From a virus (lineage: Duplodnaviria > Caudoviricetes), in IMG/VR virus record IMGVR_UViG_3300031228_000019, positions 1-35,964 of that record: a stretch of DNA of 35,964 bases; one strand, 5' to 3'. Position numbers and translations under genes: made by a program. The notes beneath the pieces were generated by a model. It did no database searches. It worked only from the letters and a program-made list of their open reading frames with translations, and was not told the origin of the DNA. Of the stretch, positions 115 through 34,250 are shown piece by piece. Each line of letters starts with the position of its first letter. The first letter of the stretch is position 1.

Positions 115-263
115 ACGCCCACCAGTACGGGCCGTATCGACCCGACGAAGGCATCACGCCCGAGGGCCTCGAGCAGTGGAACGGCCACAGCTTCGACGAC
201 CTCGAAGGCATCCCGGACTGGCTGCACGAGCAGCGCCGACAGATCGCCGAGGCCACCGCATGA
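111..263 (+). CDS. Small hypothetical protein (50 aa, MNAHQYGPYRPDEG...)
   Basis: Not in the ORF track. ATGA overlaps at both ends couple it to its neighbours, and GC3 is high. Confidence 0.65.
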   Translation: MNAHQYGPYRPDEGITPEGLEQWNGHSFDDLEGIPDWLHEQRRQIAEATA

Positions 264-1084
264 CGCTTCCCGCGATCCCGGCCCTGCCCGAGCACCTCAC
301 CCAACGCGGCGGCAACCCCGACCTCGTCCGCGACGAACTCCTCGACATCATCAAGAACGCCATCACCAACCACCCCCGCTCCCTACAAACCCGGATCGGA
401 CCCTCCGAAGTCGCCCACCCCTGCGCCCGCCGCATCGGCTACATCCTCCTCGGCCACCCGAAGACCGAGTTCCCCAACGACGTCCCCTGGCTCCCCACCA
501 TCGGCACCGCCGTCCACGCCTGGGCCGAAGAACAGTTCCTCCTCCACGGCGCCGGCCGCGACCAGGTCCGCTACCTCGTCGAGCTCACCCTCGACGTCGG
601 CGAAATCCTCGGCATCCCCGTCACCGGACACGGCGACCTCTACGACCGGGCCACCGCCACCATGATCGACTGGAAGATCGTCGGCCCCACCCCCCTGAAG
701 AAGTACCGCAGCCAGGGCCCCGGCGAGCAGTACCGCGGCCAAATCCACCTCTACGGCCGCGGCGTACGCCGACGCGGCCTGCCCTGCGACACCGTCATGA
801 TCGCGTTCCTCCCCCGCAACGGGGAGCTGCGCGACGCCTACTTCTGGCACGAGCCCTACGACGAACAGGTCGCCCTCGCCGCCCTCGAACGCGCCAACGG
901 AATCGCCCTCGCCGCACAGTCCCTCGGCCCGGCCGCACTGCCGATGCTCCCCACCGCCGACGCCTACTGCCAACGCTGCCCCTACTACCAGCGCGGCTCG
1001 GTCGACCCCACCCAGGGCTGCCCGGGCGATGAGGCAGTTCAGGCTGGGATGCCCGAGCCCGCGTTGACGTTGGCGGGCCCATGA
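260..1084 (+). CDS. Cas4-like / RecB-family PD-(D/E)xK exonuclease
   Basis: IGPSEVAHPCARR, IGTAVH, GHGDLYD, IDWK, QIHLYG and C-terminal CQRCPY...C (Fe-S cluster type cysteines). Start reassigned to the ATGA at 260. Confidence 0.85.
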   Translation: MTLPAIPALPEHLTQRGGNPDLVRDELLDIIKNAITNHPRSLQTRIGPSEVAHPCARRIGYILLGHPKTEFPNDVPWLPTIGTAVHAWAEEQFLLHGAGRDQVRYLVELTLDVGEILGIPVTGHGDLYDRATATMIDWKIVGPTPLKKYRSQGPGEQYRGQIHLYGRGVRRRGLPCDTVMIAFLPRNGELRDAYFWHEPYDEQVALAALERANGIALAAQSLGPAALPMLPTADAYCQRCPYYQRGSVDPTQGCPGDEAVQAGMPEPALTLAGP

Positions 1085-9907: not shown

Positions 9908-11220
9908 CCCTGTTCGGCGCCGTGCGCCAGGCGCGCAACGCAGTCGACGCCGAGAACCCGCTGATCCCGTTGACCTCCGAGTCGCTGCTGCAGTACCTCG
10001 GCGTCGAGGAGACCTACACCGGGAAGAACGTCAGCGAGGTCACCGCGCTCGGCATGAGCGCCGTGTGGCGGGCGGTCCAGGTCTCGTGCAACGTGCCGGC
10101 GTCGCTGCCGATCCACGCCTACCGCGACGAGGACGATGCCCGTGTCGCGGCTACGGGGCAGGGCGCGATCCTGCTCGACGACCCGCACCCGGACATGACG
10201 CCGTTCGAGTTCTGGCAGACGGTCTTCATGCACCGCAAGCTGTGGGGCAACGCCTATGTGCGGAAGCTGCGCAACCGGCTCGGCCAGATCGAGGAGCTCT
10301 GGACGATCCACCCGGGTCGAGTGAAGGTGGGCCGCACGTCCGACGTCGGCGCGAAGGTCTACGCGATCGACGGCGGCAAGGAAGTCCTCTCCGACAACGA
10401 GATCCTGCACCTGCCTGGCCTCGGCTACGACGGCATCTGCGGCGTCTCCCCGATCCGCGCGGCCCGCCAGTCCATCGGTCTCGGCCTGGCCGCGGAGGAG
10501 TTCGGCGCGAAGCTGTTCGGCAACGGCTCACTGGCGACCGGCATCCTGCAGACCGAGCAGCGGCTGACCCAGACCCAGGCCGACAAGCTCGCCGAGCGGT
10601 GGAACAGCAAGCACTCGGGGCTGACGTCGGCGCACGGCACGATCGTGCTCGACAAGGGCGCGCAGTTCACGCAGCTGACCATCCCGCCGGCCGACGCCCA
10701 GTTCCTCGAGTCGCGTCGCTTCCAGATCGTCGAGGTCTGCCGCTGGTTCGGCATGCCGCCGTTCCTGATGTTCGAGACCGAGAAGTCGACCAGCTGGGGC
10801 ACGGGCCTGGAGCAGCAGGCGCTCGGCTGGGTGAAGTTCGACCTCGGCCCCGACCTGGTCGCCGTCGAGCAGCGCGTCACCAAGCACGTTCTCCGGCCGC
10901 CGTCGGCGATCCGCGGCCGCCCCACCGGGCCGGTCGACTACGCGAAGTTCGGGATCGAGGGTCTGCTGCGCGGCGACTCCGCCGCACGCTCGGCCTTCTA
11001 CACGTCCATGTGGAACCTCGGCGCGCTGTCGACCAACGAGATCCGCGCCTACGAGGAGAAGCCCCCGGTCGAGGGCGGCGACGTCCGCTACCGGCCGCTG
11101 AACATGGGCGAGCTCGGCACCACTGACACCGGTAGCACTCCCGGCCCGGGGCAGCCCGTCGACATCAACGGCCAGCTCGTGCTCGCCGGCATGCCCTCTT
11201 CACTGAAGGAGACACCCTGA
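9904..11220 (+). CDS. Portal protein, HK97 family
   Basis: SAVWRAV, LWGNAY, EILHL, GVSPIRAARQSIG, DAQFLESRRFQIVEVCRWFGMPP, LLRGD, NEIRAYE. Confidence 0.95.
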   Translation: MTLFGAVRQARNAVDAENPLIPLTSESLLQYLGVEETYTGKNVSEVTALGMSAVWRAVQVSCNVPASLPIHAYRDEDDARVAATGQGAILLDDPHPDMTPFEFWQTVFMHRKLWGNAYVRKLRNRLGQIEELWTIHPGRVKVGRTSDVGAKVYAIDGGKEVLSDNEILHLPGLGYDGICGVSPIRAARQSIGLGLAAEEFGAKLFGNGSLATGILQTEQRLTQTQADKLAERWNSKHSGLTSAHGTIVLDKGAQFTQLTIPPADAQFLESRRFQIVEVCRWFGMPPFLMFETEKSTSWGTGLEQQALGWVKFDLGPDLVAVEQRVTKHVLRPPSAIRGRPTGPVDYAKFGIEGLLRGDSAARSAFYTSMWNLGALSTNEIRAYEEKPPVEGGDVRYRPLNMGELGTTDTGSTPGPGQPVDINGQLVLAGMPSSLKETP

Positions 11221-12146
11221 TGAGCGACGCCCCGACTGGTCCGACCTACCGTTTCCACGGCCGCAACCGGCCGGAGGCCGGCAAGCGCACCGCGGTGCTC
11301 AACACCGCCGACGTGGTGGGCGTCGAGGACGGTGTCGCCACCCTCCGCATCTACGACCCGATCGACTCGTGGGGAGGCGAGTGGGGAGTCTCGGCGAAGG
11401 AGTTCGCTCGCGCGGTCGACTCTCTGCCGGACGACACGAACGAGATCCGGTTGCACATCAACTCCCCGGGCGGCGAGGTCTTCGAGGGTCTGGCGATCCT
11501 CAACCAGCTGCGCAACCACCCGGCGCGCGTCGTGGCCGTCATCGACGGACTCGCCGCTTCGGCTGCCTCGTTCATCGCTTCCGGCGCCGACGAGGTCGTC
11601 ATGGGCCGCAACACCCAGCTGATGATCCATGATGCATGGGGCCTGTGCGTCGGGCCCGCGGTCGACATGCGCGACACGGCCGACCGGCTCGACAAGATCA
11701 GCAACAACATCGCGAGCGTGTACGCCGAGAAGGCGGGCGGGTCGACCGACGACTGGCGCGCCCACATGCTGGCCGAGACCTGGTATGACGCTGACGAGGC
11801 TGTCGCCGCTGGGCTCGCGGACCGGGTCGAGGGTGAGGTCGACGCTGAGGCGGCGAACCGCTTCGACCTGTCGATCTTCGCCCACGCCGGCCGCGAGGAC
11901 GCTCCTGCTCCGCCGCTGCCGGCCGACGATAACGAGCCGACCGCGGTGAAGATCACCGTCGTCGCACCGGTCGCCTCGTCGAAGGCGGAGATCGGTGCCG
12001 AGGTGAAGTCCGCGCTGGATGCCTACTACCGCTCGGCCACCGCCGTTGCAGACGCGGCCACCCCTGCAGACGCCGCGGCCGTCGCTGCCGCGATGGACCG
12101 CCGGCACCGCCTCAACGCACGCCGGCTCCCCGTCGCGCAGCGCTGA
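11220..12146 (+). CDS. ClpP-like head maturation protease with C-terminal extension
   Basis: LHINSPGGEVFEG, IDGLAASAASFIA (catalytic Ser), LMIHDAW (His), ETWYDADEAVAAGLAD. Confidence 0.93.
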   Translation: MSDAPTGPTYRFHGRNRPEAGKRTAVLNTADVVGVEDGVATLRIYDPIDSWGGEWGVSAKEFARAVDSLPDDTNEIRLHINSPGGEVFEGLAILNQLRNHPARVVAVIDGLAASAASFIASGADEVVMGRNTQLMIHDAWGLCVGPAVDMRDTADRLDKISNNIASVYAEKAGGSTDDWRAHMLAETWYDADEAVAAGLADRVEGEVDAEAANRFDLSIFAHAGREDAPAPPLPADDNEPTAVKITVVAPVASSKAEIGAEVKSALDAYYRSATAVADAATPADAAAVAAAMDRRHRLNARRLPVAQR

Positions 12147-12221
12147 CCCACCGCAACACCCCACGAACCCCCTGGCCAACCGGGCCCGGGCGAGCCCCAT
12201 GCTCACGAGAGGAAACATCAC

Positions 12222-13469
12222 ATGGCTACGACCAAGCTCCGCGAGCAGCGGGCGAACGTCTGGGAGCAGATGAAGGCCTACATCGACGAGGCCACCAAGG
12301 ACGGCGGAGCCGGCTGGACCGCCGACCTCACCGCCTCCTACGAGAAGGCCGAGGTCGACTTCGACAAGCTCGACGCCGACATCGAGCGCGAGGAGCGCTT
12401 CGAGGCCAAGGCCGAGAAGAACACCGGCGTCGACCGCACGGGCGTCGTCTCCCCGGACGAGATGCCCGAGCCGACCAACGAGGCCGAGGCGCTGTACTTC
12501 AACGCGTTCAAGAAGTACGTCGCCTTCGGCATGGCGGACCTCGACAGCGAGGAGCGGGCCTCGCTGCGCGCCAACTTCGGCGGCAAGGACATCCGCAACG
12601 CCCAGGGCATCGGCACCGGCTCCGCCGGCGGTTACCTCGTGCCCGAGGGCTTCCGCAAGCAGATCGTCGAGAAGATGAAGGCCTACGGCTCCGTTCAGTC
12701 GGTGGCCACGGTGCTGCAGACCTCGACCGGTGCCACGCTGCCGTGGCCGACCAACGACGACACCGGCAACGTCGGTGCGCTGCTGGCCGAGAACACGCAG
12801 GCCACCGAGCAGGACATCGAGCTCGGCACGGCCGACCTCGGCGCGTACAAGTACACGTCGAAGATCGTGCGGGTCTCGCTCGAGTTCCTGCAGGACGTCG
12901 ACTGGCTCGACGCCGAGGGCTTCATCTCCCGCAAGTTCGCCGAGCGGCTGGCCCGGATCCACAACCAGCACTTCACCACGGGCACCGGCACGAACCAGCC
13001 ACAGGGCATCGTGACCGGCGCGGTCTCGGGCGTGACCGCTGCCAGCGCCACGGCGATCACCGCGGACGAGTTCATCGACCTGCAGCACTCGGTCGACCCG
13101 GCCTACCGCAACGAGCGCTCGAAGTACATGCTCACCGACACCGCGCTCAAGGGCGCCCGCAAGCTCAAGACCAGCGGCTCGGGCGAGTACGTCTTCCAGC
13201 CCGCCAACGTGGCCGGCGGAACGCCCAACCAGATCGCGGGTGCCGGCTACGTCGTGAACAACGACATGGCCGTCCCGGCGACCGGCGTGAAGTCCGTGCT
13301 CTACGGCGACTTCGAGCTCGGCTTCGTGGTCCGGCTCGTCAAGGCGTTCGAGCTGATCCGGCTCAACGAGCGGTACGCGGACTTCGGCCAGGTCGGGTTC
13401 ATCGCCTTCGACCGCGCCGACTCCGTCGTCCAGGACGACAGCGCCTACCGGGCGCTCACCCAGGCCTGA
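12222..13469 (+). CDS. Major capsid protein, HK97 fold
   Basis: N-terminal coiled-coil delta domain, AGGYLVPE, GTGTNQPQGI, YGDF, GQVGF...RAD. Confidence 0.95.
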   Translation: MATTKLREQRANVWEQMKAYIDEATKDGGAGWTADLTASYEKAEVDFDKLDADIEREERFEAKAEKNTGVDRTGVVSPDEMPEPTNEAEALYFNAFKKYVAFGMADLDSEERASLRANFGGKDIRNAQGIGTGSAGGYLVPEGFRKQIVEKMKAYGSVQSVATVLQTSTGATLPWPTNDDTGNVGALLAENTQATEQDIELGTADLGAYKYTSKIVRVSLEFLQDVDWLDAEGFISRKFAERLARIHNQHFTTGTGTNQPQGIVTGAVSGVTAASATAITADEFIDLQHSVDPAYRNERSKYMLTDTALKGARKLKTSGSGEYVFQPANVAGGTPNQIAGAGYVVNNDMAVPATGVKSVLYGDFELGFVVRLVKAFELIRLNERYADFGQVGFIAFDRADSVVQDDSAYRALTQA

Positions 13470-13510
13470 GCCGACCCGGCCCAGGAACGCTCAGAGGAAG
13501 GAGGCACGAC

Positions 13511-13681
13511 ATGGCACTCAGCACCGACAGCGCCAAGAAGGCCGAGACCCCGGCCAAGCCGGTCACCGAGGAGGCGCCGGCCCACGACAGGGTCGTCGGC
13601 TACTCGTACAAGGCCGACGGCTCGGTCGACGGCATCGACCCCGAGCTGATCGGGGAAGCCGCCAGCTCCGACAAGGGCTGA
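13511..13681 (+). CDS. Small hypothetical protein after capsid (56 aa)
   Basis: Strong RBS AAGGAGG before ATG 13511 (MALSTDSAKKAETPAK...). Confidence 0.7.
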   Translation: MALSTDSAKKAETPAKPVTEEAPAHDRVVGYSYKADGSVDGIDPELIGEAASSDKG

Positions 13682-13691
13682 CCCCACCAGC

Positions 13692-13729
13692 GCTCGCCCA
13701 TCCGCGCTCAGTCCCGCGGATGGGCGAGC
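13692..13729 (+). terminator. Hairpin after capsid operon segment
   Basis: Perfect 15-bp stem GCTCGCCCATCCGCG / CGCGGATGGGCGAGC with an 8-nt loop. Confidence 0.6.
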
Positions 13730-13762
13730 ACCCCCTTGCACCAACGCCTCGAGGAGGTCGTC

Positions 13763-14104
13763 ATGGCTGTCACCGTTGAAGACCTCCGCGAAGAAGTCGG
13801 CGCCACCACTGCCGACGACGCGCTGCTGACGCGCTGCCTGACCGTCGCGGTCGAGCTCCTGACGAAGTACATCGTCGACAACATCGAGGTCGAGGCCGAC
13901 CGGCCCGGCGAGGAGCTCACCGACGAGGCGACGCTCGCAACCGGCGCCCAGCTGTTCGACCAGAGCAAGGCCCCCAACGGCTTCCTCAACCAGCAGTACG
14001 AGGGCGTCGACGGCACCGAGTCCATCCCGGTGCGGATCGGCACAGACCCGCTGCGCAGGGCCCGCGGGCTCCTCGACCTCTACGTCATCCCGGCGATCGG
14101 ATGA
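13763..14104 (+). CDS. Head-tail connector (gp6/gp15-like adaptor)
   Basis: RBS GAGGAGG; VTVEDLREEVG...LLTRCL...EATLATGAQLF...APNG...DPLRRARGLLDLY. Confidence 0.8.
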   Translation: MAVTVEDLREEVGATTADDALLTRCLTVAVELLTKYIVDNIEVEADRPGEELTDEATLATGAQLFDQSKAPNGFLNQQYEGVDGTESIPVRIGTDPLRRARGLLDLYVIPAIG

Positions 14105-14484
14105 GCAACGCGCTGACCGAGCTGCGCGAGCGACTGAAGACGGCGCTCGAAAGCGCCGACCTCAACGCGTTCCACATCGTCCCCGAGAAGGCGACACCGC
14201 CGCTGGCCTGGGCCGGGCCGAGCGACCCCTACGTCACCGGCGAGGGCGCCAGCTACGGCTGCATCCTCGTCCGCCACGAGATCACCATCGCCGCCGGCAA
14301 GGGCGTCAACGAGGTCATCGCCGCGCAGGTCGACGACATGTTGCTCAAGGTCCTCGGCCTGATCCCCGACGACTTCGCCGTCGAGGCGACCACGGTCGGC
14401 CGGGTCGAGGTCAACGGCCAGCGCTACCTCGGCGCCGTCGTCAACCTGCTCACCGAGATCCAGCTACCTGAGGAGACCCCGTGA
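14101..14484 (+). CDS. Neck protein, probable tail terminator
   Basis: Position, size and the VPEKATPP motif; ATGA coupling. Confidence 0.6.
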   Translation: MSNALTELRERLKTALESADLNAFHIVPEKATPPLAWAGPSDPYVTGEGASYGCILVRHEITIAAGKGVNEVIAAQVDDMLLKVLGLIPDDFAVEATTVGRVEVNGQRYLGAVVNLLTEIQLPEETP

Positions 14485-14870
14485 CCATCACCCTCGAAGA
14501 CGTCCGCGAGCAGCTGGCCGCGTTTGATCCGGCCGTCGTCGGCGACTGGTCAGACGAGACCATCACCGCCGTGCTGGCGGCCGAGGCGGCGGCGCAGCGC
14601 TCCGTCCTCAAGATCCCGGCCACACGGCCCGCAGCGTTGGACCAGGCACTGATGATCCGGGTGCTGCACAACCTGGCCACCACGAACGGCGTGCCGCTCG
14701 TCCGTGTTGGCGTGAAGGGCGAGGGCGTCCGCGAGCTCGAAGCGCCGTACAGCAGGCGAAGCGCCAGCGCCGAGCCCGACCCGGGCTCCACCAAGCTCCG
14801 CGGCTCGAAGCCCGCCGCGAAGAAGACGGCTGCCACCACGGCCGCCACCACCCAAGGAAGGAACAGCTGA
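14481..14870 (+). CDS. Second gp6-like head-tail connector paralogue with basic low-complexity tail
   Basis: ITLEDVREQL...WSDETITAVLAAEAAAQ...PAALDQALMIRVLHNLA...PL...VRELEAPY. RBS GAGGAG. Confidence 0.65.
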   Translation: MTITLEDVREQLAAFDPAVVGDWSDETITAVLAAEAAAQRSVLKIPATRPAALDQALMIRVLHNLATTNGVPLVRVGVKGEGVRELEAPYSRRSASAEPDPGSTKLRGSKPAAKKTAATTAATTQGRNS

Positions 14871-15289
14871 TGGCAGCCATCGGTACACGCAAGCTCAAGC
14901 TCGAGGTCGACGGCAGCGAGTACTCGCCGGAGGTCTCCAACGTCCGCATCACCTCCGGTGAGGCGGAGAGCGACTTCGTCACGTTCGAGGAGGCCGCGCA
15001 GGGAGGTGCCCGCGACTACGCCCTGGTGGTCACCCTCGTCCAGGACGCGGCCGCCGGGACCCTGTGGTCGGAGGTCTTCGACAGCGCCGGCGCCGACGTG
15101 CCGTACTCGGTGCAGCCCTACGGCAACGCCGCACCCTCGGTCGGCGAGCCGCACTTCGAGGGCACGTGCACCATCACCGAGCCCGACGGCGACCTGCTCG
15201 GCGGCGAGGCCAACAAGTCCAACACGGCGAAGATGACCATCGAGGTCACCTTCCCGTGCACGGCCAAGCCGACCAAGGTCACCGTCTGA
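14870..15289 (+). CDS. Major tail (tube) protein
   Basis: Acidic, beta-rich 139-aa protein (LVQD...LW, QPYGN...PHFEGTCTI) upstream of the chaperone and tape measure genes. Confidence 0.8.
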   Translation: MAAIGTRKLKLEVDGSEYSPEVSNVRITSGEAESDFVTFEEAAQGGARDYALVVTLVQDAAAGTLWSEVFDSAGADVPYSVQPYGNAAPSVGEPHFEGTCTITEPDGDLLGGEANKSNTAKMTIEVTFPCTAKPTKVTV

Positions 15290-15292
15290 CCC

Positions 15293-15676
15293 ATGGTCGA
15301 TCGCCTGGGCTTCCGCGTCGAGGGTCTATCGCAGGTCGTTCGCGCCCTGCAGACCCTCGGCGTGGAGGTCGAGGACCTGAAGGACGCCTTCGGCGAGATC
15401 TCCCGCGAGGGCGCGCAGCTGGCGTCCCAGTACGCCCCCCGCCGGTCCGGCCGGCTGGCGGGCGACATCCGCGGCAACCGAGCCAAGTCCAAGTCCGTCA
15501 TCACCGCCGGCCGTGGCTCAGTGCCCTACGCCGGGCCCATCAACTACGGCTGGGCCAAACGCAACATCGAGCCCTCCGGGTTCATGCAGAAGGCCGACCA
15601 GGCGCTGCAGCCCTACGCGCTGCGGCGGCTCGAGGAAAACATCAATCGCAAGATCCAACGAGAAGGACTGACCTGA
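15293..15676 (+). CDS. HK97 gp10-like tail completion protein
   Basis: RVEGLSQVVRAL, APRRSGRLAGDIR, VPYAGPINYGW, FM motifs. Confidence 0.8.
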   Translation: MVDRLGFRVEGLSQVVRALQTLGVEVEDLKDAFGEISREGAQLASQYAPRRSGRLAGDIRGNRAKSKSVITAGRGSVPYAGPINYGWAKRNIEPSGFMQKADQALQPYALRRLEENINRKIQREGLT

Positions 15677-16008
15677 TGAGCACCAGCCCCATGACCCTGA
15701 CTGAGACGGTCGAGAGCCTCAACGGTTTCGAGGAGATCGCGATCGAGACCAACTTCGGCGCCGACATCGAGACCCTGCTGGAGACCAAGGCCACCAAGGC
15801 GTACCGCGCCCTGGTCGCGGTCACCCTGGCCCGCGGTGGCGCGAACGCCAAGGAGGCGAAGAAGCAGGCGATGAGCCTCACGATCAAGGAGGCCACCAAC
15901 TACTTCGCGAAGGACGAGGAGGTCAACGAGGAGGACCCGGTCACCGACTCGGGAAAAGGCGACTCCTCGCCCGAGGGCGAGCCGACGAGCTCGCAATCTT
16001 CTGCCTGA
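15676..16008 (+). CDS. Tail assembly chaperone (G, unshifted product)
   Basis: TGATG coupling at 15674-15678. Directly upstream of the tape measure and contains GGGAAAA at 15951-15957. Confidence 0.85.
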   Translation: MSTSPMTLTETVESLNGFEEIAIETNFGADIETLLETKATKAYRALVAVTLARGGANAKEAKKQAMSLTIKEATNYFAKDEEVNEEDPVTDSGKGDSSPEGEPTSSQSSA

Positions 16009-16100
16009 TCACCCGGCAGCCGCCTGACGTCTACTACCAGCTCACGCGCCTCGAACGTGAGCGGTTCCTGAAACACGCTCCGGCCCTGCGCGGCCGCTGA
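15951..16100 (+). CDS. Tail assembly chaperone -1 frameshift extension (GT product runs 15676-16100)
   Basis: G GGA AAA is in the correct phase. The -1 frame reads RRLLARGRADELAIFCLITRQPPDVYYQLTRLERERFLKHAPALRGR* and stops 18 nt before the tape measure start. Confidence 0.85.
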   Translation, partial: GKRRLLARGRADELAIFCLITRQPPDVYYQLTRLERERFLKHAPALRGR

Positions 16101-16118
16101 CCCGGAAGGCGGTGCGCG

Positions 16119-19100
16119 ATGGCTGGACCGATCCGCATCGCCGTCCTGGCGAACGCCTCCCAGGCCACCAAGGAGCTCCGCGGGGTCGCGGGCACAGCCG
16201 ACAGCATGGGCTCCAAGGTCGCGAGCGCCGCCAAGAAGGCGGCGCTCGGCCTTGCTGTTCTCGGGGCCGGCGCGGCGATCAAGTTCACCAAGGACGCCGC
16301 GGTCCTCGACACCAAGATGCGCGAGGTCGTCACCCTCTTCGGTGAGACCGGCAAGGCCGCCGAGCGGTCCCTGGGCGTCGTGCGCGGCCAGGTGCGGTCC
16401 CTGTCCGACGAGTTCGGGATCGCCCAGGAGACGCTGACTGGCGGCCTCTACCAGGCGATCTCGGCCGGGGTGCCGCGGGACAACGCGCTGGAGTTCATGC
16501 GGGTCGCCTCGAAGGCGGCCATCGGTGGTGTGACCGACGTCGAGACCGCGGTCGACGGGCTCTCCTCGACCATCAACGCCTACGGCCTCGACGCCAAGGA
16601 CGCGAGCAAGGTCGCGGACTCGATGTTCACCGCCGTCAAGGGCGGCAAGACCACGTTCGAGGAACTTTCGTCCAGCCTCTTCAACGTCGCCCCAGCCGCC
16701 GCGGCGTCCAAGGTGTCGTTCCAGGAAGTCAACGCGGCGATCGCGACCCTCACCGCCGGCGGCACCCCGACCGCTGTGGCCACCACCCAGATCCGGGCGG
16801 CCCTGACCGGGCTGCAGCGCCCGTCCGCGGACCTCACCAAGATCTTCCAGGCACTCGGCTACGAGAACGCTCAAGTGGCGATCGAGTCGAAGGGCCTCGG
16901 CTTCGCCCTCGACGCCGTCAAGGACGCCTCGAAGGGCAACAATGGCGAGCTGCAGAAGCTGCTCGGCAGCTCCGAGGCCGTGGCCGCCGCGAACGTTCTG
17001 GCCGGCGACGGCGCGAAGAAGTTCACGGCCGAGCTGAAGAACCAGAAGAAGGCGGCCGGGGCTGCCGCCGACGCCTTCGACACCGTCAACAAGGGCGCCG
17101 AGCGGCAGTTCGAGATTCTGAAGACCAACCTCCGCAACGTTGGGCTCAGCGTCGGCCAGGCACTTCTCCCGGCCCTGGCCAAGGTGTCGTCCTACCTGGC
17201 CAGCGAGGTCGGCCCGGCCGTGGACCGAGTCACCCAGTACCTGTCGGAGAACAAGGACGAGTTCCGCGCGACCGCCCAGACCGTGGCGGACACGGTCCTC
17301 CCGCCCCTGAAGACCCTCGGCGAGATTGTCGTCGGCGTCACTGGCTTCCTCGCCGAGCTGCCCGCCCCGGTCAAAGAGATCGGGATCCAGGCCGGCATCG
17401 CCGCCCTCATCCTGCCCCGGCTGACGGCGGGAGTCACCGGCGTCACCGCGTCAATGTCCTTGGGCATCGCTCGCGCCAGGCAGTACTCCGCCGAGATGAC
17501 CTACACGGCCACCCGGACTCAGGCTGCCACCGCCATGATGGGTCGGCTTTCTACGGCGGCACGAGGTGCCGCCGGTATCGGCGGCCTGCTCGCGCTCTCC
17601 GCGGGGGCCAGCACCGCCAACCAGTCTTTGAGCTTCCTGGCCAAGGCCGGTGGCGGCGCCATGTTGGGGTTCTCCCTCGGTGGTCCTGTCGGGGCAGCCA
17701 TCGGCGCCGGGGCGGGCGCGCTCTATGGTCTGGCGTCGGCGACCTCGACCAGCGCTGTCGAGATGGTGACCGCCAAGGACAACACCAAGGCGTATGCCGA
17801 CACCCTCGACCAGTTGACCGGCGCGATCACGGCAACGACTCGAGCGCGGGTGAAGGAGCGGCTGCTCGCCGACTCGGCGACAGCGGCCAACGCCCAGGAT
17901 GCCGTCAAGTACGGCGCGTCGATGCGAGACATCATCTCGGCGACGCTCGGACAGGAGGGCGCGCTGAGGCGGCTGCGCACCGCCCAGCGTGACGCGAACG
18001 AGGAATTCCGGCGGCTCCAGGACATACACGGATTCGGTTCCGAGGAAGCCGAGGGCGCACGCCAGCTGACCAGCGCCCTGCTGCTGCTCCTCCCGCAGCT
18101 CGGCGCGGAGCGGCGCATCCTGAAGGAGAACGCTGAGGCGGCCAGGCAGCACGCCCTCGACACCCAGAAGCTGTCGAAGGTGTACGCGGGCGTCCCGCCG
18201 CGGGTGATCACCAAGATCCGGGCGGAGGGCGGTGAGGTCTCGATCGGCCTGGCCAAGCGGCTGATCCGGCAGTTCCAGCTGACCCCCAAGCAGGTCCAGA
18301 CTATCTTCCGCGCGAACAACATCGAGAAGACCGACGCCCAGGTCCGGGGGCTGATCAAGCGCGTCCTCGAAACTGAGCCGGCGAGCAGGCGCGCGAACGC
18401 TGGACTCAGCAAGGTGGGCGACGCCAAGCCGTCGAACAAGTGGGTCCAGCTCTTCCAGCAGGACGCGAACCGTGGCGAGCGACAGTCCCGCGAGGCGTCG
18501 CAGGCCGTGCAGCGTTTCCTCAAGCAGGCCGGCGAGCAGAGGCCCAACATGCAGCCGTTCCTCGGTGGGCTGACCGCCGGGATCACGACCAGTAAGGCGC
18601 GTGCCGCAGCTGGCGGGCGTGAGATCGGCGGAGCACTGAAGTCCGGCCTCGAAGGCGGGTTCTCCGGCGCGATCTCCAGTCTCTCCACCATGGCCCGCAA
18701 CGCCGTGGCGGGGGCGATCGCGGCCGGCCGCCGCGCAGCGAAGGCGCAGTCCCCCTCGCGGGAGACGATGAAGCTAGGCAAGGACCTGGGCGACGGCCTG
18801 ACCATCGGGCTGGCCAGGACGCGCGCCCAGCAGAAGAAGGCCGGCCAGGATCTGGTGGCTGCACTGCTGTCCGGGGTCGGCGGGTCGGATCAGGTCGGCA
18901 AGGCCCTCGACAAGATCCGGTCGCTGGTCGAGAGGACTGTCAAGCACAAGAAGGACAAGGTCGAGTCGGCCCGCGAGCGCGAGATCCTGAAGCACCTGAA
19001 GGACCGGTTCGCTGAGCTGACCAAGATCGGCCGAGCCCAGGACAAGGCCAAGTCGGACCTGAGGGAACAGCGCGACCTCTACAGAGGCCTCGTCCAGGGG

Positions 19101-19892
19101 GCGAGGGAGTACGCGGCGGGGATCCGTGACGCGGTCGTCGAGTCCGGCAATCTCACGACCCTCGGCAAGGACGAAGAGGGCAACGTCTCGCTGGGCGGCA
19201 TTCTCTCGGACCTGAAGGACAAGGTCGCCCGGGCCGTGCGCTACTCCGGGGTGCTGAAGCAGCTCGCGGACGCGAAGCTCAGCGGGACCGCATTGCAGCA
19301 GCTGATCGACGCCGGCCCCGAGGGCGGGCTGGCCACGGCGGCGGCGATCGCGGCCGGCGGGAAGGCGGCGGTCGACGAGGTCAATACCCTCACCGGGCAG
19401 CTGGTCACCACCGGGCAGGGTCTCGGCACCGCCATGTCGGCTGAGTTCCACACGGCCGGGATCAATGCTGCGGCTGCCCTGGTGCGCGGGCTGGAGAAGG
19501 ACTCGGCCGCCCTGGACCGGGCCGCGAAGAGGCTGGCGAGGCGGCTCGCTGCGGCGGTGCGTAGCGAGCTCGGGATCAAGTCTCCGTCGCGGGTGTTCAT
19601 GAAGATCGGCGACGAGGTCATGAAGGGCCTGGAGATCGCCCTGGACGAGACGCGGGCGGCGAGCCTCGGCACCGGTACGGCGAAGTCGCTGGTGCAGGGC
19701 TTCGGAACTCCGTCGCTGGACTCGTTCAACGCGGTCGCCGGAGCAGCCAGCGCCAGCACGGGGTCGACGACGGTGAAGATCTACGTGACCGCCCCGGTGG
19801 GTTCGTCCAAGGCTGAGATCGGCGCTGAGGTGAAGTCCACTCTGGATGCCTACTACAACTCCGGCGGTCGAGACCTGGCGATCGGCGGATGA
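16119..19892 (+). CDS. Tape measure protein (TP901-family core)
   Basis: 1257 aa, Ala/Gly rich. GLYQAISAG, ADSMFTAVKGGKTTFEEL core; Gly-rich hydrophobic segments; AQSPSR and LGIKSPSRVF motifs. Confidence 0.95.
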   Translation: MAGPIRIAVLANASQATKELRGVAGTADSMGSKVASAAKKAALGLAVLGAGAAIKFTKDAAVLDTKMREVVTLFGETGKAAERSLGVVRGQVRSLSDEFGIAQETLTGGLYQAISAGVPRDNALEFMRVASKAAIGGVTDVETAVDGLSSTINAYGLDAKDASKVADSMFTAVKGGKTTFEELSSSLFNVAPAAAASKVSFQEVNAAIATLTAGGTPTAVATTQIRAALTGLQRPSADLTKIFQALGYENAQVAIESKGLGFALDAVKDASKGNNGELQKLLGSSEAVAAANVLAGDGAKKFTAELKNQKKAAGAAADAFDTVNKGAERQFEILKTNLRNVGLSVGQALLPALAKVSSYLASEVGPAVDRVTQYLSENKDEFRATAQTVADTVLPPLKTLGEIVVGVTGFLAELPAPVKEIGIQAGIAALILPRLTAGVTGVTASMSLGIARARQYSAEMTYTATRTQAATAMMGRLSTAARGAAGIGGLLALSAGASTANQSLSFLAKAGGGAMLGFSLGGPVGAAIGAGAGALYGLASATSTSAVEMVTAKDNTKAYADTLDQLTGAITATTRARVKERLLADSATAANAQDAVKYGASMRDIISATLGQEGALRRLRTAQRDANEEFRRLQDIHGFGSEEAEGARQLTSALLLLLPQLGAERRILKENAEAARQHALDTQKLSKVYAGVPPRVITKIRAEGGEVSIGLAKRLIRQFQLTPKQVQTIFRANNIEKTDAQVRGLIKRVLETEPASRRANAGLSKVGDAKPSNKWVQLFQQDANRGERQSREASQAVQRFLKQAGEQRPNMQPFLGGLTAGITTSKARAAAGGREIGGALKSGLEGGFSGAISSLSTMARNAVAGAIAAGRRAAKAQSPSRETMKLGKDLGDGLTIGLARTRAQQKKAGQDLVAALLSGVGGSDQVGKALDKIRSLVERTVKHKKDKVESAREREILKHLKDRFAELTKIGRAQDKAKSDLREQRDLYRGLVQGAREYAAGIRDAVVESGNLTTLGKDEEGNVSLGGILSDLKDKVARAVRYSGVLKQLADAKLSGTALQQLIDAGPEGGLATAAAIAAGGKAAVDEVNTLTGQLVTTGQGLGTAMSAEFHTAGINAAAALVRGLEKDSAALDRAAKRLARRLAAAVRSELGIKSPSRVFMKIGDEVMKGLEIALDETRAASLGTGTAKSLVQGFGTPSLDSFNAVAGAASASTGSTTVKIYVTAPVGSSKAEIGAEVKSTLDAYYNSGGRDLAIGG

Positions 19893-21463
19893 CGCTCCTC
19901 GACAACCTCCGGGTCGGCCTTTTCGTGCCGAACACGGGGACGCTGAACGAGATCCGCAACCCTTCGGGGGAGAACGGCACCACCTCAGGGTGGGAGGAGG
20001 TCAACACCCTCGACCTCACCGCCTCGGCGACGTCAGACGGCCCGCTCGACCACGGAATCGCAGGCCCGAAGTTCATCGGCGCGACGGCCGTGAGCGGCGG
20101 CCCCGTCGGGAAGGCGCAGACGATCGGCTACCCCTACGTCATCTCAGAGTGGGTGGCGGTCAAGTACGAGGTGCCTTATGTCGACGGCTTCTACCGGGTC
20201 GGGTTTCAGTTCCTAGCCTCCAACGGGGCCGTGCAGGAGACCAGTCAGTCGGGGTATCTCACTGCCGGCGGCGCCGTCGCCTACGGGGCGATCCAGGCGG
20301 CCGCCTTCGGCATCGAGTCCGTTCGTGTCGTGTTCTGGCACTACTCGACCAACACCGGTACGGCCGCCACGGCGGGCCAGGAACTGATTTTCCGCAACGT
20401 GCAACTCGGGATCGCGGCCACGGCGCTAGAAGCGCTGGACATCGTTGACCGGGGCGAGTGGCACGACGACATCCTGGGGCCGCACACCTCCCTGTCGATC
20501 ACCCGGCGACCCATGGAGCGGGGGTCGGTGGGCGCGGTTCTCGACTCTGCGCGGTTGCCGGCGGGTCGTGACGCGGAACTCAAGCCGGGCGCCGGCTACC
20601 GGATCCGTCTCGGCTCCGAGGATCTGGTGTCGTGCCTGTTGGTGGAGCGCCGGCCGGAGGAGTCGAACCGTCCGCAGCCGCTGACCGTGCTGGAGGGGGC
20701 GGACAACGTCCGCGTGCTGCAGGTGAGGCCCGAGTACCGGGTCACGGAGGGCACGTTCGGGACCCTTCCCCTTGAACCGCTGTGGGAGGTCTTCTCTGAC
20801 TCCGAGATCCCGTGGAAGATCAACGGCTCCTCGGCGGCAGGCCCGGGCATGGAGGGTGAGGGCGTCGTCAACACGAACATGACGGCGATCGACCAGGTCG
20901 TCCTGGCGCGCGACAGCAATGCGCCGGCCTATGCGTGGTTCGACCGAGCCGGGATCGGCATCGTGAACGACCTCGCCAACATGCCTGTCGCGCCGGTGGC
21001 CACCGTCAACGAAAGCGTCTACTCCCAGTTCGTCACCGGCTTCAACATGGACGCCTGCTTCAACCAGGTCACCGTGAAGAGGATCACTGGGGAGGACCTG
21101 GGGACCTATGTCGACGCCGAGTCGGTCGAGGAGTGGGGCGAGCGGCCGGTCACGGTGAGGGTCCCTAATCAACGCTCATCGGTCCAGTCGCTCGCGCAGA
21201 CGTTCCTGGACCTGAACAAGGACCCGGTCTTCCAGGTGCTGTCGGTGCAGATTCCGCTGCACCGGATCAGCAACACCGCGGTCGCGTTGCTCGACCTGTA
21301 CGACACGGTCACCGTGAAGAACAAAGAGCAGGGCATCGACGAGGACTACTGGGTCACGTCGATCCATCACGAGATCACGCCTGAGCGGTGGATTCTCACT
21401 CTCGGGTTCACCGTCCCGGGGATCGCCGCGATCCCGCAAGTCCTACCCGACATGCCGACGTGA
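19889..21463 (+). CDS. Minor tail / baseplate hub protein
   Basis: First gene after the tape measure. N-terminal NEIRNPSGE beta-sandwich-like region; C-terminal DAESVEEWGER and LDLYDTVTV...VTSIHHEITPERW hub-like motifs. Confidence 0.75.
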   Translation: MTLLDNLRVGLFVPNTGTLNEIRNPSGENGTTSGWEEVNTLDLTASATSDGPLDHGIAGPKFIGATAVSGGPVGKAQTIGYPYVISEWVAVKYEVPYVDGFYRVGFQFLASNGAVQETSQSGYLTAGGAVAYGAIQAAAFGIESVRVVFWHYSTNTGTAATAGQELIFRNVQLGIAATALEALDIVDRGEWHDDILGPHTSLSITRRPMERGSVGAVLDSARLPAGRDAELKPGAGYRIRLGSEDLVSCLLVERRPEESNRPQPLTVLEGADNVRVLQVRPEYRVTEGTFGTLPLEPLWEVFSDSEIPWKINGSSAAGPGMEGEGVVNTNMTAIDQVVLARDSNAPAYAWFDRAGIGIVNDLANMPVAPVATVNESVYSQFVTGFNMDACFNQVTVKRITGEDLGTYVDAESVEEWGERPVTVRVPNQRSSVQSLAQTFLDLNKDPVFQVLSVQIPLHRISNTAVALLDLYDTVTVKNKEQGIDEDYWVTSIHHEITPERWILTLGFTVPGIAAIPQVLPDMPT

Positions 21464-23816: not shown

Positions 23817-24178
23817 TGTCCACCGACTCCGCGATCCTGCTGATGCTCGCTGAGCAGCGACAGACCATCGCCGCCTTGCAGGACGAGGTCGCCGCGATTC
23901 GGCAACAGCCGCAGGAGTTCGAGCTCTCGTCCGAGGCGCAGGAGCCGGCGGTGATGCCCACCCCACACGACCCTGTCGCCGCTGGTGACTCCTCCTGCTC
24001 CAGGGTCGAATGCTGCGATGAGCTCGCCCTTCGCCGACAGATCGCTCAAGAGATGCTGGACGAGGCCGCCGCATACGAGCGGATGCCACACGGCGCTAAC
24101 GCGGCTGCCATCTTTGTAGAGGCTGCGCGACTGGTTGTCAGCTCTCTTCCAGATCCCGAGCGTCCCGCCACCTCGTGA
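23813..24178 (+). CDS. Hypothetical protein with N-terminal coiled coil
   Basis: ATGA overlap with the fibre stop. The 3' end overlaps the convergent HNH gene by ~40 nt. Confidence 0.55.
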   Translation: MMSTDSAILLMLAEQRQTIAALQDEVAAIRQQPQEFELSSEAQEPAVMPTPHDPVAAGDSSCSRVECCDELALRRQIAQEMLDEAAAYERMPHGANAAAIFVEAARLVVSSLPDPERPATS

Positions 24179-24689
24179 GGAACACCTCTCCCTTTTCCGT
24201 GAGCATGTACCCCTCACGCTGGTTCATCACGACGCCGGTGGGCCCCGACGTGACCATGGTGTTGTTGGGCGAAGCCACCTTCTTCATCAGGCCGTCTCTC
24301 AGCAGATACCACATCTGGATGTCGAGACCGCCGGGCAGATCGAGAATCTGACCGACCTTCATGTTGTTCAGAACGGCGAGTTCGAGGCATCGCCGCTCTA
24401 GGTCGCCGTAGCGGTTGGTTACCAGCGCGAGGTTGGCTTTGTACTGGAGCATCGCCAAGCGATCGATCTCTCCGATCGTGGCGCGGTGATGACACACGGC
24501 GCACAAGCAGATCAGGTTGTCGAAGTCGTGTCTCTTGACCTTCACCCAATCCACGATGTGGTGCACCTGGAGAGCAGCTGTTCCCCGACATGTGGGTATA
24601 GCGCAGCGATGCCCAGCCTCAATCATGACCTGCCGCCGTAGAGGGCGCGGAATGTCCCGACCAGCGTCCTTGGGGTCCGGATCTGCCAT
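24138..24689 (-). CDS. HNH endonuclease with C-terminal extension (moron)
   Basis: RDIPRPLRRQVMIEAGHRCAIPTC...VHHIVDW...HDFDNLICLCAVCH. Antisense to the late operon and visibly more AT-rich. Confidence 0.88.
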   Translation of the reverse strand: MADPDPKDAGRDIPRPLRRQVMIEAGHRCAIPTCRGTAALQVHHIVDWVKVKRHDFDNLICLCAVCHHRATIGEIDRLAMLQYKANLALVTNRYGDLERRCLELAVLNNMKVGQILDLPGGLDIQMWYLLRDGLMKKVASPNNTMVTSGPTGVVMNQREGYMLTEKGEVFLTRWRDARDLEES

Positions 24690-28592: not shown

Positions 28593-28957
28593 CGCCACTC
28601 CTCGCGCCATTCGTCGCTGTCGGACCAGATGGCGGCGAGGGCGCGGATTGTCGGGCAGGGCCACTCCACGCCGTCGTGCCTGTTGTAGTCGTGGCACGTC
28701 GTGCAGAACTGCTGCCCAGCCAGGTGCGGCGCGTCCTCGCGATGCAGCTCCACGATGGCCCGGAGTGCGGCGACGGTGCGGAGAACGTGGGCTGGGTGGT
28801 GGCGTGCGATGTGGGTCCGCGCCTCGAAGTTGATGCCATGGTCGGCCAGCCACTCCCATCCGCCGAAGCCGCGTTCGAGGGCCTGCTCCGCCGCCGCCTC
28901 GTCGGCATCCAGCCTGTCCGTGATGAACGACGTGATGGTGGCGGTGTCGGCGGTCAT
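28589..28957 (-). CDS. DUF6221-like actinophage protein
   Basis: FITDRLDADEAAA...HIARHHPAHVLR...RAIV...PCPTIRALAAIWSD...EEW signature. Confidence 0.75.
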   Translation of the reverse strand: MTADTATITSFITDRLDADEAAAEQALERGFGGWEWLADHGINFEARTHIARHHPAHVLRTVAALRAIVELHREDAPHLAGQQFCTTCHDYNRHDGVEWPCPTIRALAAIWSDSDEWREEWR

Positions 28958-29343
28958 CGAGTCGCCTCGTTCGCGAGCTGGGCCACGCGCTGATGAGAGA
29001 CCCCGAAGAGGGTGCCGATGTCACGCATCGGCACCTCGGCCTTCACGAGTGTTCGGATCGTCGTGCGGGTCATCGTGGCGGCGTGGGCTTCGAGGTCGGC
29101 GGCCTGCTGTCGCATTGCCTCGATCTCCTCGACGACGTCGCCGACGTGGCCGACTGCGTCGAGCACGATGTCGACGCGGCCGAGCTCGATACTCGATGGC
29201 GCTACGTCCTCTGTCACCGCGATGAGCGAGCGGGCCTGATCCTCTACCTCGGACACTCTGCGGGCCTGGGTGAGGCCGTCGATCGCGGGGACCTCGATCA
29301 TCCACCAGCGGCCATCGCGGGTCACGTTCACGTCGTACTTCAT
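28954..29343 (-). CDS. hicB: HicB-family antitoxin with C-terminal HTH
   Basis: YDVNVTRDGRWWMIEVPAIDGLTQARRVSEVEDQARSLIA and MRDIGTLFGVSHQRVAQL. Start reassigned to ATG 29343. Confidence 0.88.
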   Translation of the reverse strand: MKYDVNVTRDGRWWMIEVPAIDGLTQARRVSEVEDQARSLIAVTEDVAPSSIELGRVDIVLDAVGHVGDVVEEIEAMRQQAADLEAHAATMTRTTIRTLVKAEVPMRDIGTLFGVSHQRVAQLANEATR

Positions 29344-29345
29344 GA

Positions 29346-29540
29346 TCACCCTTCCTCGATCGCTTTGCGGCATTTCCGGACCACTCCGGCCGAGATGGTC
29401 TTGTGGCTCTGCGGCAGCGGGAAGGTGTGCTTCCCGCACGGGCAGCCGTACACGGTGTGACGGCCGTCGGACCGGATCACCGTCCAGCCAGCGTCCTTCA
29501 GTTCCTTGACCATCTTCCGGGTGGGCTGCTCGCTAACCAT
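29346..29540 (-). CDS. hicA: HicA-family mRNA interferase toxin
   Basis: 64-aa basic protein: MVKELKDAGW...GRH...LPQSHKTISAGVVRK, directly upstream of hicB. Confidence 0.9.
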   Translation of the reverse strand: MVSEQPTRKMVKELKDAGWTVIRSDGRHTVYGCPCGKHTFPLPQSHKTISAGVVRKCRKAIEEG

Positions 29541-30151: not shown

Positions 30152-30210
30152 GAGTGACAGGCGAGTGACACGGTTGTGTCATTCCGGAGTGACACGGTTG
30201 GGCGTAGCGT
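30152..30210 (+). promoter_or_regulatory. Operator-like repeat array and leaderless promoter
   Basis: GAGTGACA at 30152, 30163 and 30187; GAGTGACACGGTTG twice; palindrome TGACAC-GGTT-GTGTCA; -10-like TAGCGT 6 nt before ATG 30217. Confidence 0.6.
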
Positions 30211-30216
30211 GGCGGC

Positions 30217-30381
30217 ATGACTGAGCCCTGTGGGATCTGCGGATCACCTGTCCAGATCGTGCCCGTGAAGCAGCCGCACCGGGCCGGCGACGACCTGTTG
30301 CCAACGATCGAAGGGCGGGTGTGTACGAGTGCATCCTGCGAGAGCAACACGGGCACGATGCGCTCTGGCGACAGAGTCTGA
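30217..30381 (+). CDS. Zn-ribbon microprotein A (54 aa)
   Basis: Not in the ORF track. MTEPCGICGSPVQIVPVKQPHRAGDDLLPTIEGRVCTSASCESNTGTMRSGDRV; paralogous to the next ORF. Confidence 0.75.
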   Translation: MTEPCGICGSPVQIVPVKQPHRAGDDLLPTIEGRVCTSASCESNTGTMRSGDRV

Positions 30382-30392
30382 GGGGGGGCGTG

Positions 30393-33635: not shown

Positions 33636-33810
33636 GGCCGGATCGGCGCTCCTCATGCCTCGCGAGGTCATGAAGCGGCTCCGGGTCTCACGTCAGACGC
33701 TCGCGCGGTACGTCGCCGGCGGGCACCTGGCCGCAGTCGTCCTTCCCTCCGGTCACCGCCGATATCGCGAGGCCGACGTCTGCGCGATGGAACGGACGGT
33801 GACGGCATGA
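33604..33810 (+). CDS. Cro/excisionase-like MerR-type HTH protein
   Basis: LLMPREVMKRLRVSRQTLARYVAGGHLAAVVLPSGHRRYREADV; divergent from the repressor. Start 33604 (leaderless) or 33592. Confidence 0.88.
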   Translation: MPSDRNTPDEVAGSALLMPREVMKRLRVSRQTLARYVAGGHLAAVVLPSGHRRYREADVCAMERTVTA

Positions 33811-34250
33811 GCGACCAGACCGCCCGCATCGCGGATGCCCGGCTCTCGGGCTTAGAGGCCCGCTGCTGCAACCTTCGCTCGCAGCTGGTGGACCTCGAGG
33901 CTCAGGCGACCGACCAGCGTGAGGATCTCCGCGCCGGTGGTCAGCGCCAACTCGGTCAGGTCCCGGGGTCCGCCCGAGACGCCGATCGGGTCGTCGCTGT
34001 AATCCCGCTGGCCGATCTCCTGCATGGCGGCGATGAGCTTGTCCTGCGCCTTCGACACGTCGTCGGCGATCTCTTTCGTCATGGTGACTCCAATTCTTCG
34101 GTTGCTGGTCCTTCCGAAGGTAGGCGCGGCGGCGGAGATGAGCCCGCCGCCGCGCCGTCACCGACGTCCGACCCGGCAGCGCTCGGTCGTGAGGTCAAGC
34201 GAGTCCTAGACGCCTACTACCGGGCCGGTGGCCGGCAGCGCGCCCCCTAA
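33807..34250 (+). CDS. Early ORF (147 aa) ending in a tape-measure C-terminus-like motif
   Basis: ATGA-coupled to cro/xis. Ends DPAALGREVKRVLDAYYRAGGRQRAP*. The middle section is the antisense of 33852-34082. Confidence 0.55.
   Translation: MSDQTARIADARLSGLEARCCNLRSQLVDLEAQATDQREDLRAGGQRQLGQVPGSARDADRVVAVIPLADLLHGGDELVLRLRHVVGDLFRHGDSNSSVAGPSEGRRGGGDEPAAAPSPTSDPAALGREVKRVLDAYYRAGGRQRAP
33852..34082 (-). CDS. Small helical protein nested antisense in the early operon
   Basis: RBS GGAG 5 nt before the ATG, -10-like TACCTT upstream, good codon usage, amphipathic sequence MTKEIADDVSKAQDKLIAAMQE... Confidence 0.7.
   Translation of the reverse strand: MTKEIADDVSKAQDKLIAAMQEIGQRDYSDDPIGVSGGPRDLTELALTTGAEILTLVGRLSLEVHQLRAKVAAAGL

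What the first reader, a model, noticed from the sequence alone, without database searches (positions are those of the whole stretch)
11946..12035. Tape-measure C-terminal motif grafted into the prohead protease
Seen: the protease tail has VKITVVAPVASSKAEIGAEVKSALDAYYRS (11946-12035). The tape measure (TMP) ends with VKIYVTAPVGSSKAEIGAEVKSTLDAYYNS (19773-19862). By my alignment 25 of 30 residues are identical, and 8 of those identical residues use different synonymous codons, pointing to selection on the peptide rather than a fresh DNA duplication. In the protease the motif interrupts an Ala/Pro-rich linker before the terminal helix. Established: siphophage TMP C-termini engage the tail tip and are often proteolytically processed. 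Inference: the motif could be a shared docking or cleavage signal linking head maturation to tail assembly, or an abundant decoy for a factor that binds the TMP end. I know of no described head protease carrying a TMP tail.
Basis: partly seen in the sequence, partly recalled or inferred. Interest (0 to 1): 0.88.

Follow-up and report, generated by a model that had tools for sequence, protein, structure and literature searches.

The report
Tail-tip peptide copied into head protease
A soil phage carries the last 30 residues of its tail-length protein a second time inside its head-maturation protease and a third, foreign-type copy near its early genes; no relative found shares this, so it is likely a tolerated recombination leftover, though it could be a decoy against defences aimed at the tail tip.

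Summary
Observation confirmed: 25 of 30 residues identical, 8 synonymous codons, 72 of 90 bases. A contig from a second assembly spans the locus unchanged (probably the same sample). The motif is the conserved C-terminal tip of a tape-measure (TMP) family, so TMP is the donor. New here: a third copy, of another TMP subtype, at 34152-34250 (50 bits).

Against a shared signal: 0 of 203 complete related proteases carry it, including 4 phages whose TMP has this tip. The insert lacks the family's near-invariant Gly-Gly end and free C-terminus. The site is a hypervariable linker holding other unrelated inserts. The codon argument is weak: a sister TMP allele shares 2 of the 8 synonymous codons, and 3 of 5 substitutions are the family's commonest residues.

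Best reading: a lineage-specific graft, likely a tolerated passenger (0.55). Main rival: a decoy for a Tab-like factor aimed at TMP ends (0.22), since two independent extra tips in one genome is unusual (no other of 321 loci).

The parts
11220..12146 (+). ClpP-fold prohead protease, 308 aa; core about residues 32-204; Ser114 invariant, His137 and Glu186 near-invariant among 56 aligned rows
11937..12035 (+). TMP-tip insert (residues 240-272; the 30-residue motif is 11946-12035): strand-turn-helix part of the tip, without Gly-Gly-Arg and stop. DNA match to the L081 TMP runs about 9 bases further upstream
12036..12146 (+). Rest of the Ala/Pro linker and the terminal basic helix, which close relatives share
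16119..19892 (+). Tape measure protein, 1257 aa
19773..19892 (+). Native TMP tip (strand, turn, amphipathic helix, Gly-Gly-Arg, stop overlapping the next start): donor lineage of the insert
19889..21463 (+). 524-aa gene after TMP; no PHROG or Pfam match; a baseplate or hub role is inferred from position only
34152..34250 (+). Third copy: TMP tip of another subtype, lacking the strand, keeping helix, Gly-Gly-Arg and a stop at the natural place; expression not shown
34122..34155 (.). Perfect 13-bp GC hairpin directly before the third copy, where the tip's strand would be (ends approximate)
33852..34082 (-). 76-aa orphan gene with GGAG and good codon use, antisense inside the early operon next to the third copy; function unknown
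33807..34250 (+). Open frame P0280 (147 aa) whose ATG overlaps the excisionase stop and which ends in the third copy; mostly the in-register antisense of the 76-aa gene, poor codon score, doubtful as a gene

Best explanation
The protease carries an in-frame copy of its own lineage's tape-measure tip, likely captured by non-homologous recombination into an insertion-tolerant linker, where it likely rides as a tolerated passenger. Shown: TMP is the donor; the insert is closest to this phage's TMP and its sister allele; relatives lack it; the site varies freely in length and content. Inferred: the donor was an older or sister allele of this TMP, which explains most of the differences. Only an in-frame piece cut before the TMP stop would spare the terminal helix, which would explain the lost Gly-Gly-Arg end. 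The piece would be packed into the prohead with the protease and digested there (general knowledge of HK97-type maturation, recalled), away from the tail assembly pathway. The third copy would be a separate, older relic of a foreign TMP end.
For: 0 of 203 complete related protease frames (138 distinct C-termini, from 216 loci searched) score above 4 bits with the tip profile; the insert scores 47.6. A search with residues 205-308 among 1527 candidates returned only the protein itself and P0002, which lacks the insert. In 4 other phages with both a tip-bearing TMP and this protease type (L073=L137, L113, L176, L278) the protease has none. The tail after the FDL motif is 33-109 aa in 51 of 76 relatives measured, 94 here and 58 in L001, and carries unrelated inserts in L005, L018, L049, L043 and L130. 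Among the 150 best of 583 profile hits, 132 of the 136 new ones have the motif within 12 aa of the C-terminus, the other 4 are repeat proteins, and none matches a protease profile; 25 of 25 mid-length hits tested match TMP PHROGs. The insert's nearest tips among 180 are the own TMP and L081 (25 of 30 each), then 23 and 22. Polarised codons and residues. Third copy has weak codon use (0.16 against a gene mean of 0.50) and no supported gene call.
Against: Two independent tip copies, of different subtypes, in one 36-kb genome is hard to get by chance: no other of 321 loci (3.97 Mb, partly redundant) has a second copy, nor do 5 tip-bearing Nocardioidaceae-group genomes outside TMP genes. The insert keeps gene-like codon use (0.68) and a synonymous excess (p 0.013 and 0.053). 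The third copy still scores 50 bits, keeps its stop and lies in a frame with a coupled ATG; only 1.6% of off-frame windows reach its codon score. No complete close relative was available: L081 holds only the tail region, and the closest proteases (72-88% identity) lie on fragments without a TMP end. A 50%-cluster library can hide such inserts; this protease itself was not listed.
Confidence: 0.55

Rival explanations
1. Decoy. The extra tips would soak up a host- or prophage-encoded factor that binds TMP C-termini and blocks tail assembly (Tab-like). The protease is translated ahead of TMP in the late operon and in more copies (inferred), so it would present the own tip in excess. The early-region copy would cover another subtype. 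The antisense 76-aa orphan beside it is a candidate for the phage's own blocker.
For: Tab inhibition maps to the TMP C-terminal region, TMP is present in only 3 or 6 copies, and tab lies on the minus strand inside an operon beside its counter-defence gene (PMC10884400, passages). Tai and its counter-defence form a similar non-contiguous operon (PMC11364771, passages). Here two independent extra tips share the helix core, and one lies beside an antisense orphan gene. No other locus examined has extra tips.
Against: No Tab-like or TMP-tip sensor is identified in this host group; the 76-aa gene has no PHROG, PADLOC or credible Pfam match and no viral relative. The two papers do not describe anti-Tab or Ati as target mimics in the passages seen. 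The one TMP sensor mapped, Avs18, binds a central 130-residue segment, not the tip (PMC13581612, passages). A useful decoy would be expected to recur, and it does not in the data searched. Expression of the third copy is doubtful.
Confidence: 0.22
2. Co-opted structural piece. The tip helix, a trimeric coiled coil in solved virions, would now bundle protease tails or lengthen the helix that tethers the protease inside the prohead, giving a small head-assembly benefit unrelated to the tail.
For: The model makes the insert helix continuous over residues 255-278, next to the terminal helix 282-301 (pLDDT about 60-79). TMP tips form trimeric coiled coils in JBD30, T5, 80alpha and Douge (PMC11445458, PMC13033339, passages). 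Codon use of the insert is gene-like.
Against: Relatives manage with linkers of 33-60 aa and with unrelated inserts. It does not explain the third copy. ClpP rings are heptamers (recalled; PDB hits have 7 or 14 chains), a poor fit to a trimer.
Confidence: 0.1
3. One reading: a shared docking or cleavage signal that links head maturation to tail assembly (the protease docks on the hub, or cuts both itself and TMP at this motif).
For: TMP tips dock in the baseplate hub and are proposed to be cleaved off (PMC11445458, PMC13033339, passages). The insert keeps strand and helix of the tip.
Against: Absent from 203 of 203 related proteases and from 4 of 4 phages with both parts. The near-invariant Gly-Gly and the free end are lost (162 of 180 tips keep it). 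Heads and tails assemble in separate pathways. A hub-binding tip on an abundant head protein would be expected to hinder tail assembly (inference).
Confidence: 0.06
4. A DNA-level element (binding site, or template and variable repeat of a diversity-generating retroelement), or an assembly artefact.
For: Three same-strand copies share a short DNA core; the third is probably non-coding and follows a hairpin.
Against: Differences fall mostly on third codon positions and are not adenine-specific (5 of 18 on the TMP side, 2 of 18 on the insert side). No reverse transcriptase among the 29 ORFs scanned. Both extra copies are bridged by independently assembled contigs.
Confidence: 0.05

Closest known systems
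ClpP-like (Pfam PF00574; PHROG 2976/94) prohead proteases of HK97-type siphophages
   Same: Same fold, catalytic Ser and His positions, gene order portal-protease-capsid, and terminal basic helix as its close relatives.
   Different: About 36 extra residues in the C-terminal linker, 30-33 of them from the TMP tip; seen in none of 203 complete relatives.
Siphophage TMP C-terminal plug (JBD30 gp46, T5, 80alpha, mycobacteriophage Douge)
   Same: Last 30-40 residues of a TMP with an amphipathic helix, by position the part that docks in the baseplate.
   Different: This sequence family has no PDB or Pfam match, so likeness to the solved plugs rests on position only. The protease copy is internal and lacks the Gly-Gly end.
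Tab/anti-Tab (PMC10884400) and Tai/Ati (PMC11364771) tail-assembly defence and counter-defence pairs
   Same: Tab acts through the TMP C-terminal region; the defence gene lies antisense in an operon beside its antidote, a layout echoed at 33807-34250.
   Different: No sequence link shown; those systems are proteobacterial, sit in or near the late genes, and their antidotes are not described as copies of the target in the passages seen.
Avs18 TMP sensor (PMC13581612)
   Same: Shows that bacteria can sense TMP directly.
   Different: Binds a central segment of about 130 residues, which the extra copies do not contain.

Membership tests
ClpP-like prohead protease | ClpP (peptidase S14) domain by profile and fold | tested here: met
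   PF00574 106 bits over cut-off 20; Foldseek ClpP, rmsd about 1.5-2 A over 170 residues
ClpP-like prohead protease | Catalytic Ser-His-acid residues | tested here: inconclusive
   Ser114 invariant, His137 and Glu186 near-invariant in 56 rows; their catalytic roles are inferred from ClpP, with Glu where ClpP has Asp (recalled)
ClpP-like prohead protease | Position between portal and HK97-fold capsid genes | tested here: met
ClpP-like prohead protease | Cleaves the capsid precursor and itself in the prohead | not testable with these tools
   needs mass spectrometry or in vitro assay
TMP C-terminal tip (this actinophage family), for the protease insert | Strand-turn-amphipathic helix sequence pattern | tested here: met
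   47.6 bits with a TMP-only profile
TMP C-terminal tip (this actinophage family), for the protease insert | Gly-Gly after the helix and a free C-terminus within about 12 residues | tested here: not met
   Gly in 21 and 20 of 21 tips, absent in the insert; 36 residues follow; 132 of 136 hits are terminal
TMP C-terminal tip (this actinophage family), for the third copy | Helix, Gly-Gly-Arg and stop at the natural place | tested here: met
   50.4 bits, 1 residue from the stop
TMP C-terminal tip (this actinophage family), for the third copy | N-terminal strand and a TMP body upstream | tested here: not met
   replaced by a hairpin-forming stretch and an antisense gene
Tab/anti-Tab-type system | Antisense defence gene next to a lytic-strand antidote | tested here: inconclusive
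   layout present at 33807-34250, but in the early region and with a doubtful plus-strand gene
Tab/anti-Tab-type system | Homology to Tab, Tai or their antidotes | not tested
   no direct comparison made; the 76-aa gene has no PHROG, PADLOC or credible Pfam match
Tab/anti-Tab-type system | Blocks tail assembly of other phages; antidote relieves it | not testable with these tools
   needs plating assays
Diversity-generating retroelement | Adenine-specific differences between repeats and a reverse transcriptase | tested here: not met

The most novel reading that the evidence does not exclude
The phage mass-produces copies of its own tape-measure tip as decoys against a tail-assembly blocker: one built into the prohead protease, one ending an early frame that overlaps, antisense, a 76-aa orphan that could be the phage's own Tab-like blocker. 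That would be counter-defence by self-mimicry, made by grafting the target epitope onto an abundant essential protein, and a first pointer to TMP-tip-directed defence in Actinobacteria.
Probability: 0.17. Interest if true: 0.82.

Novelty: new variant of a known kind. Interest (0 to 1): 0.42.

Why it matters
As a passenger it is a clean snapshot of sub-gene mosaicism: a 100-base functional tip moved in frame into another essential virion-assembly gene, and it marks the protease linker as a site that accepts inserts. If instead the two extra tips are decoys, they name the exact epitope that a tail-assembly defence attacks, which is still unmapped for Tab, and they give ready bait peptides for finding such factors in Nocardioides-like hosts.

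Tried and rejected
Complex prediction of the 76-aa orphan with the TMP tip: no verdict, score 0.01; not evidence either way. Single-sequence protease model: unusable, pLDDT 45; replaced. Other non-TMP carriers of the tip: P0256 (141 aa) first looked like one, but residues 46-136 align weakly with the end of an annotated TMP and it has no relatives in viral contigs or a clear Atlas match, so it is ambiguous. P0169 (60 aa) is too short to classify and lies on a 1.8-kb contig. 80 of 86 classifiable hits under 700 aa have a TMP-like body, 6 were too short; the 20 new short hits look like TMP-end fragments. Weak genome hits L227-L229, L231, L246 (17-20 bits, internal in unrelated genes) were set aside as chance, and the two frames of L226 are one frameshifted TMP end. 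A joint that skips 11897-12069 in X1 and X2 has only 21 letters on one side at 80% likeness; I read it as another organism's DNA. Runs X3-X5 gave no listed piece across the insert, which proves nothing. DNA patterns for the motif found only TMP ends in viral contigs (1 and 3 loci). No relatives of the third-copy frame or of the 76-aa gene (1 weak hit in 401 genomes, not examined). Cultured phages gave no significant tip match. No protease of this type in the 9 prophage regions fetched, so they could not test co-variation. No sigma-70-type promoter near the third copy. Genome-wide searches scored only 18 candidates per genome (8 of 401 and 3 of 401 genomes matched). DGR and misassembly rejected as above. 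Literature searches (listings only) showed no report of a TMP tip in a head protease or of a TMP-tip decoy; supplements were not read.

Full report
Setting. The window is a 35,964-base linear virus record, 69% G+C, with terminase, portal, ClpP-like protease, HK97-type capsid, TMP, primase, integrase, repressor and excisionase genes: a temperate siphophage. Named TMP relatives are from Nocardioides and the nearest protease relatives in genomes are actinobacterial, so a Nocardioides-like host is inferred. The runs that hold the locus are soil metagenomes.

Residues 243-272 of the protease and the TMP stretch ending 9 codons before its stop share 25 of 30 residues, 8 with synonymous codons, and 72 of 90 bases; E 5e-19 within the window. 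One independently assembled contig bridges the whole protease with 0 differences, probably from the same sample. The protease core is ClpP-like by profile, model and fold search; the insert lies in the lower-confidence tail, predicted as a helix before the terminal helix.

What the motif is. TMP relatives end in the same pattern: strand, turn, amphipathic helix, Gly-Gly-Arg, stop. A 24-row profile hit 583 of 1.84 billion representatives. Of the 136 new proteins among the best 150, 132 have the motif within 12 residues of the end, 4 are repeat proteins, and none matches a protease profile; 25 of 25 mid-length hits tested are TMP pieces. The motif is thus a TMP tip and the protease is the recipient. 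In solved siphophages the last 30-40 TMP residues form a trimer anchored in the baseplate (PMC11445458 and PMC13033339, passages seen). This family has no PDB or Pfam match, so that role is inferred from position.

Is the graft shared? No, within reach of the data. Three collections gave 214 protease loci, one being the window's own record. Of 216 non-own loci then held, 213 had a protease frame and 203 ran to a stop (138 distinct ends); none scored above 4 bits with the tip profile, against 47.6 for the insert. A direct search with the tail found only the protein itself and an insert-free relative. After adding 80 TMP-based loci, 4 other phages held both a tip-bearing TMP and this protease type, all without the insert. 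The linker is hypervariable: 33-109 residues after the FDL motif in 51 of 76 relatives measured, with unrelated inserts in several. Limits: the closest proteases and the closest TMP (L081) lie on separate fragments, and clustering at 50% can hide inserts.

Is it under selection in the protease? Not shown. dN/dS is 0.24 against the own TMP (p 0.013) and 0.33 against the sister allele L081 (p 0.053). L081 shares 2 of the 8 synonymous codons and about 9 upstream bases with the insert. Three of the 5 substitutions are the commonest or tied-commonest residue among 21 TMP tips (10, 12 and 9 of 21) where the own TMP has rare ones (0, 3 and 0 of 21); only 2 are private to the insert. The nearest tips among 180 are the own and L081 alleles. 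This fits capture from an older or sister allele, with much of the change on the TMP side. The insert has lost the Gly-Gly present in 21 and 20 of 21 tips, and has 36 residues after it.

The third copy. At 34152-34250 lies another tip, 50.4 bits with a profile that excluded it and bridged by contigs of two runs of one sample. It is of a different subtype (best 20 of 31 identities, to other TMPs), lacks the strand, keeps Gly-Gly-Arg and the stop, and follows a 13-bp hairpin. It ends a 147-codon frame whose ATG overlaps the excisionase stop, but most of that frame is the in-register antisense of a well-supported 76-aa minus-strand gene (codon scores -0.17 against 0.62). The copy's own codon score is intermediate: 12% of 214 gene windows score as low, 1.6% of off-frame windows as high. 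No other of 321 loci has a second tip, nor do 5 tip-bearing bacterial genomes outside TMP genes. Two independent extra tips in one genome is the one observation the passenger reading explains poorly.

Mechanisms. Most likely (0.55): non-homologous capture into a tolerant linker; only an in-frame piece cut before the stop would spare the terminal helix; it would be encapsidated and degraded with the protease (recalled HK97 biology). Decoy (0.22): Tab blocks tail assembly through the TMP C-terminal region and sits antisense beside its antidote (PMC10884400, passages); Tai is arranged alike (PMC11364771, passages). Against it: no such factor is identified here, the mapped TMP sensor Avs18 binds a central segment (PMC13581612, passages), and the graft does not recur. 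Structural co-option in the prohead (0.10). Shared docking or cleavage signal (0.06): contradicted by absence in relatives, loss of the conserved end, and separate head and tail pathways. DNA element or artefact (0.05): differences are not adenine-specific.

Novelty. Both parents are known kinds; the fusion was not listed in my literature searches (listings only, no supplements read) or in the scan's index. Two earlier notes describe a different TMP-end module in podophage proteins, untested here. Verdict: real, apparently unique to this lineage, most likely without function, with a specific and testable minority reading. Interest 0.42.

Noticed in passing
window 33852-34082 (-) with 34122-34155: Orphan 76-aa gene, antisense inside the early operon after the excisionase, with its own GGAG and a 13-bp hairpin upstream; moron-like.
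   Followed up: partly
L005, L018, L049/L051/L134, L043, L130 (protease C-terminal linkers): Other unrelated inserts at the same linker, several Cys-rich; the site seems to collect short foreign modules.
   Followed up: no
window 28954-29540 (-): HicA-family gene (PF07927, above cut-off) followed by a 131-aa HTH gene, probably a HicAB toxin-antitoxin pair; the HicB label is inferred.
   Followed up: partly
window 24138-24689 (-): Minus-strand HNH gene inserted between tail and lysis genes (PF01844).
   Followed up: no
window 30208-30557 (+): Two overlapping frames encode 44%-identical Cys-containing peptides of about 57 aa, a small tandem duplication.
   Followed up: no
window 176-1084 (+): Exonuclease with a weak CRISPR-associated (Cas4-like, label recalled) PHROG match, next to an HNH gene and a polymerase/primase.
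   Followed up: no
window 15000-20500 versus 10500-14843: In run X1 the tail region breaks into short contigs at up to about twice the depth, with variant alleles: related phages sharing the tail but not the head seem to co-occur in the sample.
   Followed up: no
P0256 and P0169 (stored proteins): Short proteins ending in a full TMP tip with atypical N-termini; either decayed TMP ends or further grafts.
   Followed up: partly
G347:C1:4215477 and 4256453: Two equal-scoring TMP tips about 41 kb apart, suggesting a tandem double prophage.
   Followed up: no
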